From: an uncultured Bacilli bacterium
GTDB lineage: Bacteria; Bacillota_I; Bacilli_A; RF39; UBA660
Direction: 5' to 3'
DNA length: 64,000 nucleotides
NCBI GenBank assembly: GCA_934162425.1
Contig: CAKPIS010000003.1
Span: 15,774-79,773 of the forward strand
The position numbers were made by a program. Below are positions 1 to 6,000 of the stretch, piece after piece. Within the stretch, counting starts at the first letter, position 1, and the number at the start of each line of letters is the position of its first letter.

Positions 1-3000
1 ATTAAGCTTCCATCATCATAAAATTCATAATTTTCAAAAGTTCTATCATGAGTAATATAATTACCATCATCAACCACATCAGAATCAGTAATAAATGTAA
101 TAACATCCAGTGCTTGATTAACAAAACCAATTGAATCTAGATTTTCTGTACCAATTGTAAATGAATAATATTTATAATTTCCTTTTTTATATGGATTGAT
201 TGTTAAATCACCCATTCCAATATTATATTGTTCTTTCTTTAAAAAGTTTACTTTATCTTTATACTCTCCAAAGTTAATTTTTTTTGCTTTATTTGTTACA
301 AAATTATAAATAACATAATCACCATCTAAAAATCCAACTGTATCTATTTCGCTACTGCTTATATAATTAGTAATTAACATACAATCTTCACTAGAACATT
401 TATATGTTCCAACGTTATTATATATAGCACTAGGATTACTTTTCTTTGTTTCTTCATAATTACTTGTAATATATAAGTTTTCTTCTGATGTATCATATTT
501 ATATGTGTATATATCAATTGTTTTAGCAGTACCTTTAGGTTCATACCATCCTTCATTTTCTTTATTTATTACTTCTTTTTGTTTATTATTCTCTTTATTT
601 TTATTATCTTTTTCTTTAATTTTAATAATACCTTTATCATTTAATATATAAACTACCAAACCTATTATAATAATAAATAATATTAATACTACTACTTTAA
701 ATATATTTCTTTTCTTTATAGTTTCATTACTTGGTCTACCTACACTATTTTTAAACATAACCATTATCTTCTCCTTTCAATTTTCTTTTTTTAAATATAA
801 ACAAGTGCTTATATACTACCTGCAAACATTCCTCCTATTCTATAATTTAATTATATAGGATGATTACTTTCTTTGCAAGTTTTTTTATGGCAAAAAAGAG
901 CCTATTATTTAGACTCTTCATATATTAAGTTAAAATCTTCTATAAGTTCACTTTTTATACTATCTTTATCACTTTTTTCTTCATCTATAGTATAAGTTTT
1001 TTCTACAATACCATTTTTAACAAATACTATAATAGGTGCACTTATATTATTTTCCTCTTTTTTTTCTTCCAAATTATCACTATAATCTTCATCTTTAAAA
1101 TCTAGTAATTTAATTAAATCTTTATATTCCTGAGTATTATTTTGCATCATATCTTTAATATTGTAATAAGATATTTCTTCTAATTCTTTTTCTTTTGATA
1201 TACCATCAAGTAAAGATGCAGTTAAATCACAATATTTACAAGTTGGATACGCTAAGAAAATAACACCTGTACCATTTTCTATCTTATCTATTAAATTATC
1301 ATAAGTATAATATTCAAAAACATTATCTTGACTAACTAAAGGATATTCTTTACTAAATTTTAAAGCATCAGTATTTATATCATCATCAACTTTTGTTACT
1401 TCTACAGAACTACATCCAGTAATTAACAAAAAAGTTAGCAATAACAAAACCACTAACTTTTTCATAATTATTCGCCTTTCATTTGAGCAGCTACTTCTTC
1501 AGCAAAGTTATCTTGACGTTTTTCTAGACCTTCACCAACTTCAAATCTAATAACATCAACTAATGATCCACCATTATTGCTTATATATTTTGAAACAGTA
1601 ACACTGTTATCTTTAACAAATTCTTGTTCTTCTAAGCAAACTTCTTTATAGAATTTATTAATTTTACCCATTACTATTTTTTCAGCAATATTAGCTGGTT
1701 TACCTTCTCTAATAACTTCTTCAGTTAAAATTTTCTTTTCATTTTCTAATCTATCAGCTGGAACATCATCCTTTTTAACAAATTCTGGACGCATTGCAGC
1801 AGCATGCATAGATACATCTTTAGCAACAGCTTCAGAAGCACCTTTTAATATAGTTAAAACAGAAATCTTTCCACCCATATGAATATAAGCACCAAAGTTT
1901 TCATCATCTTCTTTAGTTACATTAGCAAATCTTCTAAATGATATTTTTTCTCCAATAGTTGCAGTCATATTAGTAACATAATCATTTAAAGTACCATCTT
2001 CACAAGGAAGTGCTAAAGCTTCTTCATTTGTTTTAGCATCACTATTTAAAATAGTATTAGCTACATCATTAACAAACTTTTCAAACTTTTCGTTTTTAGC
2101 AACAAAGTCTGTTTCACAGTTAATTTCAAGTACAACTGCCTTATTACCATTAGTTACAATAGTAGATAACCCTTCAGCAGCAATTCTTCCAGCTTTTTTA
2201 GCAGCTTTTGCAATACCTTTTTCTCTTAACCATTCAGTAGCTTTCTTTATATCATTACCATTTTCTTCTAAAGCTTTCTTACAATCCATCATTCCAGCTC
2301 CAGAAATATCTCTTAATTCTCTGATTAAACTTGCATTCATCTTTAAATCTCCTCACTAAAATTATTTTCTTAAAGCATTAATTAGTTCATCTTTTTTTAA
2401 CTTTGAATATCCTTCAATATTAGCTTCTTTAGCCATAGCTTTTAATTCAGCAACTGTTTTTTTAGCTAAATCTACACTTTCTTCTTTTACATCAGAAGCT
2501 ATTTCTTTAACTGCTTCCTTAACTGTTTCTTTAACTTCATGAGCTTTTTCTAATGCTTTTGGAGCAACTTCGCTAACTTTCTTTTCTACTACTTTTTTAA
2601 CATCTTTAGCTAACTCTTTAACATCATTTGCAACTTCTTTAGCAGAAGCTTTTACTTTATCTTCTTCAGTTATATAATCTTCAACTGGTTTTCCATAGGC
2701 TTCACATATAGCATTATTTAATACACCAAGTACGATTTTAACAGCACGAATAGCATCATCATTACCTGGAATAACATAATCAACTAAATCTGGATCACAG
2801 TTAGTATCTACGATACCAAATACTGGAATTCCTAACTTATGTGCTTCATTAATTGCGTTAATTTCCTTCTTAGGATCTACGATAATCATAGCTTGTGGAA
2901 TCTTTTTCATTTCTCTTAAACCACAGAAGTATGAATTTAACTTTTCGTATTCCTTTTTAATCATAACAACTTCTTTTTTAGGTAACTTTTCAAAAGTACC

Positions 3001-6000
3001 ATCTTTTTCCATCTTTTCAATTTGATCTAAACGGTTAATTCTTCTTCTAATTGTTCTAAAGTTAGTTAAAGTTCCTCCTAACCAACGTTTTGAAACATAG
3101 TAACTATCAGATCTTTTAGCTTCTTCTTCAGTGGCTTCAGAAGCTTGTTTCTTAGTTCCTACGAATATAACCTTTCCGCCATTAGCGGCAATTTCTTTTA
3201 AAGCTGCGTAAGCTTCTTCAATTTTCTTTACTGTTTTTTGTAAATCAATAATATAAATATCGTCTCTTGCAGTAAAGATATATTCTTTCATCTTTGGATT
3301 CCATCTTTTTGTTTGATGTCCAAAGTGTACACCTGCTTCTAGCAAGTAACTCATTGATACAACTGGCATTTCTTTTTCCTCCTTTGTTCTAACCTCCAAA
3401 CCTTTCATCTTTATATGCTCACCCTCTTCGGGCACTCGAGATATAAATCCAGATTTGTGTGTATTTCTTTTCCTCTAGAAAAGCCATGGTTATTATAACA
3501 CATATTTATTATATGATACAAGCTATTTTTTTATATTTTATAACGAAAAATGATAAAATTATTAACTAATTTCATCACTTGTTATTTTTAACAGTTCATC
3601 ACATAATAATTTAAATATTTTATCATTTTTAAATTTAGGTTTATCATATAAAATCCAATAGTCACTAGCTGTTTTTGCATTTTTTTCTATTTTCTTAGCA
3701 CTACTACCATAATATACTAAATCTTCTTTAGCTTTCTCTATTAAGAAATTTCCATCTAAATCATATACCTTAGCTTGCATATCACATTCCATTTTATCTA
3801 TTAAATAACAAAACTTAGCTTCCTTTGTTTTTCCCTCGTTAAACTCATTTACTAAACTTATTAACTCATCCCTAGAAGATAAAGTGCTAGCTACAATATT
3901 AACACTTTCTACTCCAATTTTTATTTTTTCTTCCTTTGTTATACCAGAACGTAAAGTAAAATCTGGTTTTAAAACTTCATCTAATTCATGAATAGTAAGC
4001 ATCTTTAATACTTTATACATATCAATATTTAAATCATATTCACTATCTACCGCAATAGATAACATTAAACATCCATATATATGTTCAGCAACTGATTCTA
4101 ATCTTTCTTTTGTTATACCTATTTCTACAAACCCTGTTCTTATTTTATACTTTAATTTATTTACATATAAATAAAAATCAATAATTCTTTTAGCTTTATT
4201 ATCCATAATACCTTCCTATAAATTATTTGGATCAAAATCCATCTCTATTTTAATATTATTATTTCCTTCATATATTTTAATTATATTTTTAAGCATACTA
4301 TATAATTTATCATCTTTTTTATATTTTAATATAACTTCAAAATTATATAGATTATTTATTTTTAATATACTTGCCATACCTGGTCCTAAAACAGTAGTAC
4401 TATCTAAGTTTTTTCTTAAATATTCGCTTATTTTTTTAGCTTCTTTAATACCATAATTAAAATCTTTAGCTATTATTTTAATAAGTGTTATAAAACAATA
4501 TGGAGGATAATTTAATTTTTTTCTTATCATAAGTTCTTGCTTGAAAAACGTTTTATAATCATGATTTGCAGCACAAACAATGCTATAATGATCTGGATTA
4601 AATGTTTGTACAATAGCTTCTCCTTCTTTTTCTGCTCTTCCGCATCTTCCCGTTGTTTGATCTAAAAGACTAAAGGTTACTTCACTACTTCTAAAATTTG
4701 GCAAGTTAAGACTCATATCTGCATTTATTACTCCTACTAATGTTACGTTAGGAAAATTAAGTCCTTTTGATATCATTTGAGTACCAACTAAAATATCATA
4801 CTTACCATCATTAAAATCATTAATAATTTTATAATGAGAACCTTTTTTTGTAGTAGTATCCCTATCCATTCTAACTATATTTGAATCTGGAAACTTTTCT
4901 TTTAACATCTCTTCTATTTTTTCAGTACCAAGACCCATTTGTCTTAAAGACTCTTCCTTGCAATTAGGACACTTATCTTCCTTTTTAGTAGCATATCCAC
5001 AATAATGACATCTTAGCATATCAGACGTTTTATGATACGTTAAAGTAATATCACAATTAGGACATTTATAAACAAACCCACAAGATTTACAAGTTAAATA
5101 ATTAGAATATCCTCTTCTATTAATTAAAAGCATTACTTGCTCTTTTTTACTTAATGCAAGATGAATCTTATCTAATAAAACAGATGAAAAATACATATTT
5201 CCCTTTTTAATTTCATCTTTCATATCAACTATAGTAACTTTAGGCATAGGTTTTTTATTTACTCTATTTAAAAGCTCTAAATATTTATAATAACCTTTCA
5301 TACTCCTTGCATAACTTTCTATTTTAGGAGTTGCACTCGCTAAAATAATAGGACAATTATGAGTATTTGATCTTTCTTTAGCTATATCATAAGTATTATA
5401 TCTAGGATTATTTTCTTGTTTATAACTTTCAGAATGCTCTTCATCTATTATTATAACTCCTATGTTTTTAACAGGTGCAAAAATAGCACTACGAGCTCCT
5501 ATTACAACAGATACTTCACCCCTTAAAATTTTTCTATATTCATCATATTTTTCTCCATCAGATAAAGAAGAATGAAGTATTGCAATATTATCTTTAAATA
5601 CCCCTTTAAATCTTGCTGTTATTTGCGGTGTTAAACTAATTTCAGGAACTAATATAATTGCACCCTTTTTATTTTTAATAACTTCTTTTACTATATCTAT
5701 ATATACTTCTGTTTTACCAGAAGATGTTACACCATATAAAAGAAAAGTATCACCTTTATTTAAGTTTTCTTTAACTATGTTAGAAACCCTTTCTTGATCC
5801 TTAGTTAAAGTAATATTATTACTAACTTCTTTAGTTTCTACATTTCTATATTCTTCTTTTTTTACTTCAATAACTATATTATAATCTATTAGCCTTTTAA
5901 GAGAAGACTTACTTTTTATAAGACTTTTTTTTATACAATTATTTTCTTTTAATAGCCTTATAATATCAAGCATACTCTTACCCTTAATATTATCTAATTT

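What the first reader, a model, noticed from the sequence alone, without database searches (positions are those of the whole stretch)
905..3435. Non-canonical rpsB-tsf operon ending in a CxxC thioredoxin-fold lipoprotein, with a membrane-anchored paralog at 49092..49826
In most bacteria rpsB-tsf is followed by pyrH-frr. Here a thioredoxin-fold lipoprotein (AYPTCKYC) starts 3 nt after tsf and shares its terminator. A paralog with CPWC and an uncleaved TM anchor lies 48 kb away, next to a small membrane protein and an MBL-fold hydrolase. Two extracytoplasmic thiol-disulfide oxidoreductase-like paralogs sit near many Cys-rich secreted proteins (the 625-aa Cys-repeat protein and the P2/P3 CECG domain). 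This could reflect a dedicated oxidative-folding or reductive role. The ribosomal operon placement implies growth-rate-coupled expression.
Basis: partly seen in the sequence, partly recalled or inferred. Interest (0 to 1): 0.5.

Follow-up and report, generated by a model that had tools for sequence, protein, structure and literature searches.

The report
Thioredoxin-like lipoprotein fused to rpsB-tsf operon
In a group of uncultured low-GC gut bacteria, a surface-tethered thioredoxin-like protein gene sits where the nucleotide kinase gene pyrH normally lies after the translation genes rpsB and tsf; it is probably a helper for folding cysteine-rich exported proteins, which is an unusual gene placement but not a new kind of system.

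Summary

In 14 related genomes the order rpsB-tsf-lipoprotein-(variable genes)-frr is kept. The gene therefore occupies the usual pyrH slot, and frr is still downstream.

Both proteins belong to a large uncharacterised family (at least 1810 clusters) distantly related to PedC/BrcD bacteriocin disulfide isomerases, but far below that family's threshold and with no bacteriocin genes nearby.

One result cuts against a purely redox reading. Two orthologues in the same slot, and more distant relatives between tsf and frr, have lost the CxxC yet are otherwise equally conserved.

An anchored 624-aa protein five genes upstream has 29 invariant cysteines and is a plausible client.

Verdict: a new member of the extracytoplasmic thioredoxin-like proteins with an unusual, clade-conserved operon position. 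Catalytic direction and partners are untested. Interest is modest.

The parts
3492..3521 (-). Promoter-like region of the rpsB unit: TTGTAT, 18 nt, then TGtTATAAT (extended -10)
   Evidence: Read from the sequence. Almost invariant in seven clade loci.
3370..3491 (-). Conserved, probably structured 5' leader of rpsB
   Evidence: Near-invariant across the clade. RNAalifold gives a long hairpin in which 9 of 30 pairs show compensatory changes, on 5 sequences. No Rfam match at E<=1.
2362..3369 (-). rpsB (ribosomal protein S2, 335 aa from the AGGAGG-supported ATG), with a ~110-aa C-terminal extension ending in a Rho_N/SAP-like domain
   Evidence: PF00318 E 1e-97; PF07498 E 1.9e-11; TIGR01011. Start as called in relatives.
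1468..2340 (-). tsf (elongation factor Ts, 290 aa)
   Evidence: PF00889 E 9e-74; TIGR00116 at 330 bits.
905..1465 (-). Thioredoxin-fold lipoprotein (186 aa), last cistron of the unit. Its ATG is 2 nt after the tsf stop, and an AAAGG Shine-Dalgarno lies inside the tsf 3' end.
1412..1465 (-). Signal peptide II with lipobox (MKKLVVLLLLTFLLITG|C18)
   Evidence: Read from the sequence. N-terminal matches to lipoprotein models in all 22 family members. G17 and C18 are invariant.
1229..1240 (-). Active-site motif C76-K-Y-C79
   Evidence: tgt aaa tat tgt. C76 and C79 are invariant in the 22-sequence alignment. The motif sits at the start of helix 79-92.
1034..1039 (-). A143-P144, the putative cis-Pro loop preceding beta4
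   Evidence: Invariant in A1. It lies immediately before strand 145-150 in the model.
892..919 (-). Terminator-like hairpin GAAGAGTCTA-aataa-TAGGCTCTTT followed by TTTG. The stop codon lies in the loop.
   Evidence: RNAfold. An equivalent hairpin plus T-run is seen in 17/17 loci. Not detected by the stricter consensus scan.
850..878 (-). Promoter-like site (TTGCAA, 17 nt, TATAAT) for the next, strain-variable gene
   Evidence: 10 of 12 consensus match.
1..764 (-). 5' part of a 567-aa N-anchored protein. It is the first gene of the variable island that separates the lipoprotein gene from frr; frr lies beyond the window.
   Evidence: 97% identical to the L002 567-aa protein. Gene order in L001-L004.
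49092..49826 (-). Paralogue: membrane-anchored thioredoxin-fold protein. It has CPWC-R at residues 103-107, the cis-Pro loop EKRIYVP, and a C-terminal Cys pair C237/C244. The likely start is the ATG at 49820.
6451..8322 (-). Candidate client: a 623/624-aa type-II anchored surface protein with 29 Cys in YxCPxG...C repeats. It is conserved upstream of priA throughout the clade.
   Evidence: All 29 Cys are invariant in 5 orthologues at ~57% identity. No Pfam match. The link to the lipoprotein is inference only.

Best explanation
The 186-aa gene encodes a lipid-anchored, extracytoplasmic thioredoxin-fold protein. It belongs to a large uncharacterised 'PedC-like' family of membrane-tethered thioredoxin-like proteins from gut Firmicutes. 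The CPWC paralogue at 49092-49826 represents the mainstream type of that family.

In one clade of uncultured low-GC Bacilli, the tsf-frr interval no longer holds pyrH and holds this gene instead. There it has been welded onto tsf: a 2-nt gap, an RBS inside tsf, and the terminator moved to its own 3' end. It is therefore made as the last cistron of the rpsB-tsf transcript (strongly inferred).

In this organism the protein keeps an intact CxxC and the Ala-Pro loop. It therefore most likely acts at the outer face of the membrane as a thiol-disulfide oxidoreductase or foldase, forming or shuffling disulfides in exported Cys-rich proteins. One such candidate client is the conserved 29-Cys anchored protein nearby (inferred).

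Substrate binding by the thioredoxin groove, independent of the cysteines, is probably part of the selected function, because orthologues in the same slot have lost the CxxC.

The oxidant or reductant that recycles the protein is unknown. No DsbB, VKOR or CcdA is present in the window.
For: Fold and motifs:
- AF2 model with a thioredoxin topology and CxxC at the helix N-cap.
- C76, C79, A143 and P144 are invariant in 22 sequences.

Export:
- A lipobox, with lipoprotein-model hits in 22/22 members.

Family:
- hhalign between the two families gives E 8e-42.
- 1810 representative clusters match the profile.
- PedC_BrcD is the commonest curated thioredoxin-type match: 19/22 and 26/26 members, best E 5e-8 and 1.3e-7.
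- Pfam PF20207 'PedC-like' is recorded as a faint hit.
- 1zma is the best PDB sequence hit, and it shares a CP[YW]CR motif with the paralogue family.

Operon:
- The order priA-HD-rpsB-tsf-X-...-frr is seen in 12/12 genome loci.
- The 2-nt junction and a hairpin plus T-run after X are seen in 17/17 loci.
- pyrH follows tsf in 28 of 48 more distant loci.

Selection: dN/dS is 0.29.

Need for disulfides: the upstream surface protein has 29/29 invariant Cys.

Known biology: PedC guides disulfide formation in pediocin (PMC4919988). SdbA is a disulfide-forming enzyme for secreted proteins in S. gordonii (PMC5112981).
Against: - Two orthologues in the identical slot lack both cysteines (P0155 and P0156; their tsf is 82-83% identical to the window's). 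They are as similar to the window protein (44% and 39%) as CxxC-bearing orthologues are (43-53%).
- The nearest outgroup loci carry Cys-less homologues between tsf and frr (L028, hhalign E 7e-23; L026).
- About 17% of the top 150 family representatives (26/150) lack one or both Cys.
- No redox partner was found in the window.
- The window protein itself does not reach E 0.1 against PedC_BrcD.
- No activity, localisation or transcript data exist.
- The link to the 29-Cys protein rests only on conserved proximity, five genes away.
Confidence: 0.55

Rival explanations
1. It is a redox-independent surface chaperone or adaptor. The thioredoxin fold serves as a peptide-binding module, as in the inactive b domains of PDI. 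The CxxC in this lineage is then an ancestral leftover or accessory feature, and the conserved role in the tsf-frr slot does not involve thiol chemistry.
For: - Cys-less orthologues sit 2 nt after tsf with normal conservation levels.
- Cys-less homologues lie between tsf and frr in the outgroups L028 and L026.
- The Pro of the cis-Pro loop and the N-terminal TDAxKFxxEY helix are kept in most Cys-less members.
- The post-lipobox segment VEVTKVxDD is invariant, which is unusual for a lipoprotein linker.
Against: - C76 and C79 are invariant in all 22 aligned CxxC-bearing members spanning 41-89% identity. That argues for selection on the cysteines where they exist.
- 121 of 150 family representatives keep CxxC.
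- The Cys-less orthologues are known only from ~1-kb contigs of one study.
Confidence: 0.25
2. It is an extracytoplasmic reductase of the ResA/TlpA/Etrx type. It would receive electrons from a CcdA/DsbD-like membrane protein and keep surface thiols reduced or feed a surface methionine-sulfoxide reductase.
For: - Lipoprotein thioredoxins of this kind exist in Firmicutes (general knowledge).
- There are weak DsbE matches in 9/22 members (best E 0.005) and MauD matches in 11/22.
- The organism is a gut anaerobe, for which an oxidant to drive disulfide formation is not obvious.
Against: - No CcdA/DsbD-like gene is present in the 64-kb window.
- The best structural matches are plain thioredoxins and 1zma, not TlpA/ResA-type proteins.
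- The active sites are CP[W]C-R or Cx[LYW]C, not the CxPC typical of that class.
- Invariant multi-Cys exported proteins argue for disulfide formation.
Confidence: 0.1
3. It is a genuine PedC/BrcD-type bacteriocin maturation and transport accessory protein.
For: - PedC_BrcD (TIGR01295) is the closest curated family.
- 1zma, a 'bacteriocin transport accessory protein', is among the top structural and sequence hits.
Against: - Scores are far below the family cut-off: 19 bits against 120 for the paralogue, and no hit for the window lipoprotein.
- The gene is flanked by tsf and a surface-protein gene, and by frr in relatives. No bacteriocin, immunity or C39-peptidase ABC transporter genes are adjacent.
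- Placement in a housekeeping operon is conserved across the clade.
Confidence: 0.04

Closest known systems
PedC/BrcD family bacteriocin maturation disulfide isomerases (NCBIfam TIGR01295; Pfam PF20207 'PedC-like'; structure 1zma from S. pneumoniae)
   Different: Similarity is far below the family threshold. There is no bacteriocin or ABC-transporter context. This protein has an extra N-terminal helix (TDAxKFxxEY) and a 25-60 residue insertion between alpha3 and the cis-Pro loop. The lipoprotein form is embedded in the rpsB-tsf unit, and some orthologues lack the cysteines.
SdbA of Streptococcus gordonii (general disulfide-forming oxidoreductase of a Firmicute lacking DsbA/DsbB)
   Same: A thioredoxin-family surface protein that makes disulfides in several secreted proteins rather than in one bacteriocin (PMC5112981). 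SdbA is reported to work with only the C-terminal Cys of the CxxC (title cited). Correspondingly, 12 of the top 150 relatives here keep only that Cys.
   Different: I did not have the SdbA sequence, so there was no direct sequence comparison. The SdbA partners (SdbB/CcdA2, from my own knowledge) have no counterpart in the window. The operon context also differs.
DsbA-type lipoproteins of Firmicutes (S. aureus DsbA, B. subtilis BdbD, clostridial DsbA; PMC12453122)
   Same: Lipid- or membrane-anchored CxxC oxidases acting on exported proteins. Some work without a dedicated DsbB, using small-molecule disulfides (PMC12453122 abstract).
Canonical tsf-pyrH-frr gene cluster
   Same: rpsB-tsf upstream and frr downstream are retained. 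The cluster is described as common in PMC2837039. It is seen in 28 of 48 comparison loci.
   Different: pyrH is absent from the interval in this clade and its nearest relatives, and a thioredoxin-like membrane protein gene occupies the place. Strain-variable surface-protein genes are inserted before frr.

Membership tests
Thioredoxin-fold superfamily, CxxC class | Beta-alpha-beta-alpha-beta-alpha-beta-beta-alpha thioredoxin topology | tested here: met
Thioredoxin-fold superfamily, CxxC class | CxxC at the N-terminus of the first long helix after beta2 | tested here: met
   C76/C79 lie directly before and at the start of helix 79-92. They are invariant in A1.
Thioredoxin-fold superfamily, CxxC class | Cis-proline loop preceding beta4, facing the CxxC | tested here: inconclusive
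   A143-P144 are invariant and sit immediately before strand 145-150. The cis conformation and the distance to the CxxC were not measured.
Bacterial lipoproteins (Lgt/LspA substrates) | An n-region, an h-region and a lipobox [LVI][ASTVI][GAS]C | tested here: met
   MKK, then LVVLLLLTFLL, then ITG|C18. G17/C18 are invariant. Lipoprotein N-terminal models hit 22/22 members. Actual lipidation is not testable here.
PedC/BrcD bacteriocin maturation disulfide isomerase (TIGR01295) | A score at or above the curated cut-off of 120 bits | tested here: not met
   The window lipoprotein has no hit at E<=0.1. The paralogue scores 19.3 bits. Family bests are E 5e-8 and 1.3e-7.
PedC/BrcD bacteriocin maturation disulfide isomerase (TIGR01295) | Encoded in a bacteriocin operon with structural, immunity and ABC-transporter genes | tested here: not met
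   The neighbours are tsf, surface-protein genes and frr. The paralogue's neighbours are a Cys-free small membrane protein, an MBL hydrolase, pyrophosphatase and an acetyltransferase.
DsbA family | A helical domain of ~65 residues inserted in the thioredoxin fold | tested here: not met
TlpA/ResA/DsbE-type reductases | The family profile match, the CxPC-type motif, and a CcdA/DsbD partner | tested here: not met
   Only weak DsbE hits (best E 0.005, 9/22 members). The motifs are Cx[LYW]C and CPWC. No CcdA/DsbD is present in the window. The rest of the genome was not searchable.
rpsB-tsf transcription unit | The gene is co-transcribed with tsf: no terminator or promoter between them, and a terminator after it | tested here: inconclusive
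   The 2-nt gap is conserved in 17/17 loci and a hairpin plus T-run follows the gene in 17/17. In the outgroups L026/L028 a hairpin plus T-run lies between tsf and the homologue. No transcript data are available.

The most novel reading that the evidence does not exclude
The tsf-coupled lipoprotein is not primarily an enzyme. It would be a thioredoxin-fold surface chaperone whose production is tied stoichiometrically to the translation machinery. On this reading it is a housekeeping export or folding factor specific to this clade of reduced-genome gut Bacilli, which displaced pyrH from the tsf-frr cluster and can dispense with its cysteines. The wider CPWC family, with its near-invariant C-terminal Cys pair, would then be an unrecognised DsbB-independent disulfide system of anaerobic Firmicutes that uses the tail disulfide as a shuttle.
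Probability: 0.15. Interest if true: 0.6.

Novelty: new member of a known kind. Interest (0 to 1): 0.33.

Why it matters
[quoted passage not shown] Many of them lack DsbA/DsbB and were thought to avoid cysteines in exported proteins (PMC2823432).

This locus supplies three things:
- a large, uncharacterised, PedC-like family of membrane-tethered thioredoxins in gut bacteria;
- one branch of that family hard-wired into a ribosomal/translation-factor operon;
- a nearby, clade-conserved surface protein with 29 invariant cysteines that could serve as a natural substrate.

The natural CxxC-less orthologues in the same slot offer a ready-made comparison between the catalytic and binding roles of the fold. 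The organisms are uncultured, so the practical impact is limited to recombinant work and annotation.

Tried and rejected
- Consensus terminator scan of 1-4300: no site after the gene. I replaced it with RNAfold and comparison across loci.
- Rfam: only four tRNAs in the whole window, and nothing at E<=1 in 700-3700. There is no known leader or riboswitch.
- Pfam and NCBIfam on the window protein alone: only sub-threshold Glrx-like and lipoprotein N-terminus hits. Information came only from family-wide scans.
- PDB sequence search: E>=0.01 only.
- afdb50 fold library: not available.
- Location of pyrH: a B. subtilis PyrH probe written from memory was validated as an AA_kinase and finds pyrH in 28 comparison loci. 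It hits nothing in the window or in the +/-8 kb of 14 clade loci.
- Functional link between the paralogue and its small membrane protein or MBL neighbours: rejected. The membrane protein has 0 Cys, and the context differs in distant homologues.
- The 942-aa protein as a disulfide client: rejected. It is DUF285/LRR with one Cys per repeat.
- Bacteriocin accessory role: rejected on context and score.
- Literature: Davey et al. 2013 (PMC3675578) is not held. No paper mentions PF20207.

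
Full report
**1. What is in the sequence**

The window has about 25% G+C, and almost all genes are on the minus strand. At its left end the minus strand carries, in order:
- priA (4216-6378);
- an HD-domain gene (3562-4206);
- rpsB, an ORF at 2362-3435 (PF00318, E 1e-97);
- tsf, 1468-2340 (PF00889, E 9e-74);
- a 186-aa ORF, 905-1465.

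The AGGAGG-supported ATG of rpsB is at 3369. Gene callers used this start in near-identical contigs.

The third ORF begins MKKLVVLLLLTFLLITG|C, which is a type II signal peptide with a lipobox. It contains AYPTCKYC at residues 72-79. The junction reads GAA-TAA-TT-ATG, so only 2 nt separate the tsf stop from the ATG, and an AAAGG lies 9 nt upstream inside tsf.

The next gene downstream starts at 764 and runs off the window. It has its own good promoter-like site, TTGCAA-17-TATAAT, at 878-850.

The two proteins are homologous: BLASTP E 1e-12 at 26% identity, and their family profiles align with hhalign E 8e-42.

**2. Fold**

An AlphaFold2 model was built on 22 homologues. It has mean pLDDT 78, with about 90 in the core. 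The low-confidence parts are the signal peptide, the linker and an acidic loop at 121-144.

The model shows an N-terminal helix (30-40) followed by beta(50-52)-alpha-beta(67-72)-[C76xxC79]-alpha(79-92)-beta(98-102)-alpha-alpha-[A143-P144]-beta(145-150)-beta(153-159)-alpha(167-185).

The paralogue model (pLDDT 88) has a long TM helix at residues 5-34 and the same fold with beta-hairpin insertions. 1zma is again among the top four hits.

**3. Family**

The lipoprotein has only 33 close relatives in the 90%-clustered database. The paralogue has 472, one of which is named 'thioredoxin family protein'. A profile of the lipoprotein family finds 1810 representative clusters at E<=1e-3 and 851 at E<=1e-10. 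This is a large family without functional annotation.

Scanning every member against NCBIfam shows that the commonest thioredoxin-type match is TIGR01295, the PedC/BrcD bacteriocin maturation disulfide isomerases. It is hit by 19/22 lipoprotein-family members (best E 5e-8) and 26/26 paralogue-family members (best E 1.3e-7). All of these are far below the 120-bit cut-off, and the window lipoprotein itself has no hit.

The precomputed Pfam label for relatives is PF20207 'PedC-like', marked faint. The best PDB sequence hit for the paralogue family is again 1zma, and the active-site stretches resemble each other: GfpkCPWCRnavpvL against GRKTCPYCRKFAGTL.

The paralogue family has:
- an invariant CPWC-R;
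- an EKRIYVP cis-Pro loop;
- a near-invariant C-terminal Cys pair (C237, C244).

Some of its members are lipoproteins rather than TM-anchored. One tsf-linked orthologue (L007, the P0007 type) still has CPWC and a C-terminal ECDC. The lipoprotein clade is therefore a derived branch of the CPWC family.

**4. Gene order and transcription unit**

Near-identical contigs from human-gut metagenomes show the gene order beyond the window. It runs rpsB-tsf-lipoprotein, then either a serpin gene or a 567-aa protein plus a pilin-like N_methyl protein, then frr and a 223-aa gene.

Twelve species-level genomes carry an orthologue with 43-53% identity; their tsf is 80-85% identical. Their records are titled uncultured Bacilli, Tenericutes, Mycoplasmatota, or Clostridium sp. 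CAG:594. All have priA-(HD)-rpsB-tsf-lipoprotein and, where the contig allows, frr 60 nt to 4 kb further on.

I wrote a B. subtilis PyrH probe from memory. It was validated as an amino-acid kinase, and it detects pyrH in other loci. It finds no pyrH in the window or in any of these clade loci.

In 48 more distant metagenomic loci with at least 2 kb after tsf, pyrH follows tsf within 600 nt in 28. This agrees with the published 'common cluster tsf-pyrH-frr' (PMC2837039). The lipoprotein gene therefore occupies the pyrH slot, and frr has not moved. Where pyrH now lies could not be determined.

Every orthologous locus has stop + 2 nt + ATG at the tsf junction. Every one also has a hairpin followed by a T-run right after, and often overlapping, the lipoprotein stop codon. 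This holds even where frr begins only 61-86 nt later behind a TATAAT box (17/17 loci).

The window's own hairpin is GAAGAGTCTA/TAGGCTCTTT, at 895-919. It is weaker than most and was missed by the consensus scan.

In the nearest outgroup loci (tsf 57-58% identical) the homologous gene also lies between tsf and frr. There, however, a hairpin plus T-run and a TATAAT box separate it from tsf.

The likely history is therefore as follows. pyrH left the interval first. A thioredoxin-like membrane protein gene then settled there as an independent unit. In the focal clade it was later fused to tsf as the last cistron of the rpsB unit. Co-transcription and translational coupling are strong inferences, not observations.

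**5. The complication: loss of the CxxC**

Within the 22 aligned members, C76 and C79 are invariant. Among the 150 best family representatives the picture is more mixed:
- 121 have CxxC;
- 13 have neither Cys;
- 12 keep only the second Cys;
- 1 keeps only the first.

Two of the Cys-less proteins, P0155 and P0156, have the clade's characteristic N-terminus MKKLV..LLTFLLILTGCNTIKVTKV. They are encoded 2 nt after a tsf that is 82-83% identical to the window's, and one of them is followed by frr. They are 44% and 39% identical to the window protein, the same range as CxxC-bearing orthologues, so they are not decaying.

The outgroup homologues in the tsf-frr interval are also Cys-less. L028 reads PQNTWSG and matches at hhalign E 7e-23. 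L026 matches at E 3.5e-6. L028 carries a second, tandem Cys-less copy.

Most Cys-less members keep the Pro of the cis-Pro loop and the N-terminal TDAxKFxxEY helix. Thiol chemistry is therefore under selection where it exists, but it is not indispensable for whatever keeps this gene in this place. A substrate-binding or chaperone component is the simplest reconciliation.

Members that keep only the second Cys recall the report that SdbA of S. gordonii functions with only the C-terminal Cys of its CxxC (title cited).

**6. Possible clients and partners**

The window contains no DsbB, VKOR, CcdA or DsbD candidate.

The small membrane protein next to the paralogue has no cysteine. The paralogue's neighbourhood is different in distant homologues.

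The 942-aa 'Cys-repeat' protein is a DUF285/LRR protein with one Cys per 26-residue repeat. That is not a disulfide pattern.

The 624-aa type-II anchored protein at 6451-8322 is a different case. It has 29 Cys in YxCPxG...C repeats and is conserved directly upstream of priA in the clade. All 29 Cys are invariant in five orthologues at about 57% identity, whereas only 230 of 693 columns are invariant overall. This argues that the organism does make structural disulfides (or Cys-based metal sites) outside the cell, and it offers a natural candidate substrate. The connection to the lipoprotein is by proximity only.

**7. Interpretation and comparison**

The best-supported reading is that the protein is a lipid-anchored, PedC-like, thioredoxin-fold oxidoreductase or foldase acting on exported proteins, expressed as the last gene of the rpsB-tsf transcript.

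It works like PedC/BrcD or SdbA-type enzymes (PMC4919988, PMC5112981). It is not a member of TIGR01295 by score or context, and it is not a DsbA or a TlpA/ResA-type protein by fold detail and motif.

Its redox direction and recycling route are unknown. Clostridial DsbA proteins recycled by small-molecule disulfides provide a precedent for partner-less oxidases in anaerobes (PMC12453122).

dN/dS of 0.29 against an 89%-identical relative shows ordinary purifying selection.

**8. Verdict**

In kind, however, it is a new member of the extracytoplasmic thioredoxin-like proteins placed in an unusual operon position.

The most interesting aspects are:
- the clade-wide replacement of pyrH by this gene;
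- its fusion to tsf;
- the natural CxxC-less orthologues.

Interest is modest (0.33).

Noticed in passing
window 3370-3521 (- strand): The rpsB promoter and a ~120-nt leader are almost invariant across clade genomes whose proteins differ by 15-20%. The leader folds into a long hairpin with compensatory changes (for example AATC/GGTT against AGTT/AACT). There is no Rfam match. It may be an unrecognised S2-responsive ribosomal-protein leader that would also control the lipoprotein gene.
   Followed up: partly
window 2362-2700 (- strand): Ribosomal protein S2 carries a ~110-residue Lys/Glu/Val-rich C-terminal extension ending in a Rho_N/SAP-like domain (PF07498, E 1.9e-11). It resembles NCBIfam's 'sunset domain variant' of S2 but scores far below that model's cut-off.
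   Followed up: no
window 1-764, 10840-11724, 11904-12845, 19327-20949, 21066-22988 (- strand): At least five N-terminally anchored proteins share a conserved cytoplasmic N-terminus, M(G/K)(V/L)FKNxVGRPSNETIKKRNIF, ahead of the membrane helix, while their ectodomains differ. It may be a lineage-specific export or sorting signal.
   Followed up: no
window 6451-8322 (- strand): A 624-aa type-II anchored protein with no Pfam match has 29 Cys in YxCPxG...C repeats. All 29 are invariant in five orthologues at ~57% identity, and the gene lies upstream of priA throughout the clade.
   Followed up: partly
L001 8740-10347 versus L002 8702-11544; L108 and L109: The stretch between the lipoprotein gene and frr is a strain-variable island. 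In contigs that are otherwise >98% identical it holds either a serpin, or a 567-aa anchored protein plus a pilin-like N_methyl protein, or a serpin plus another gene.
   Followed up: no
window 49092-49115 (C-terminus of the paralogue) and alignment A2: The CPWC family has a near-invariant Cys pair in a flexible C-terminal tail (C237 and C244; model pLDDT <50). It might act as a shuttle disulfide. The window lipoprotein has lost it, but one tsf-linked orthologue (L007) keeps ECDC.
   Followed up: no
L028 6967-8051: An outgroup locus carries two tandem Cys-less thioredoxin-like membrane proteins between tsf and frr. L030 has tsf followed directly by frr.
   Followed up: partly
L001 16269-16478: A small acid-soluble spore protein gene (PF14098 SSPI) lies ~8 kb from the locus in the same organism. 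This fits poorly with record titles that call relatives Tenericutes or Mycoplasmatota.
   Followed up: no
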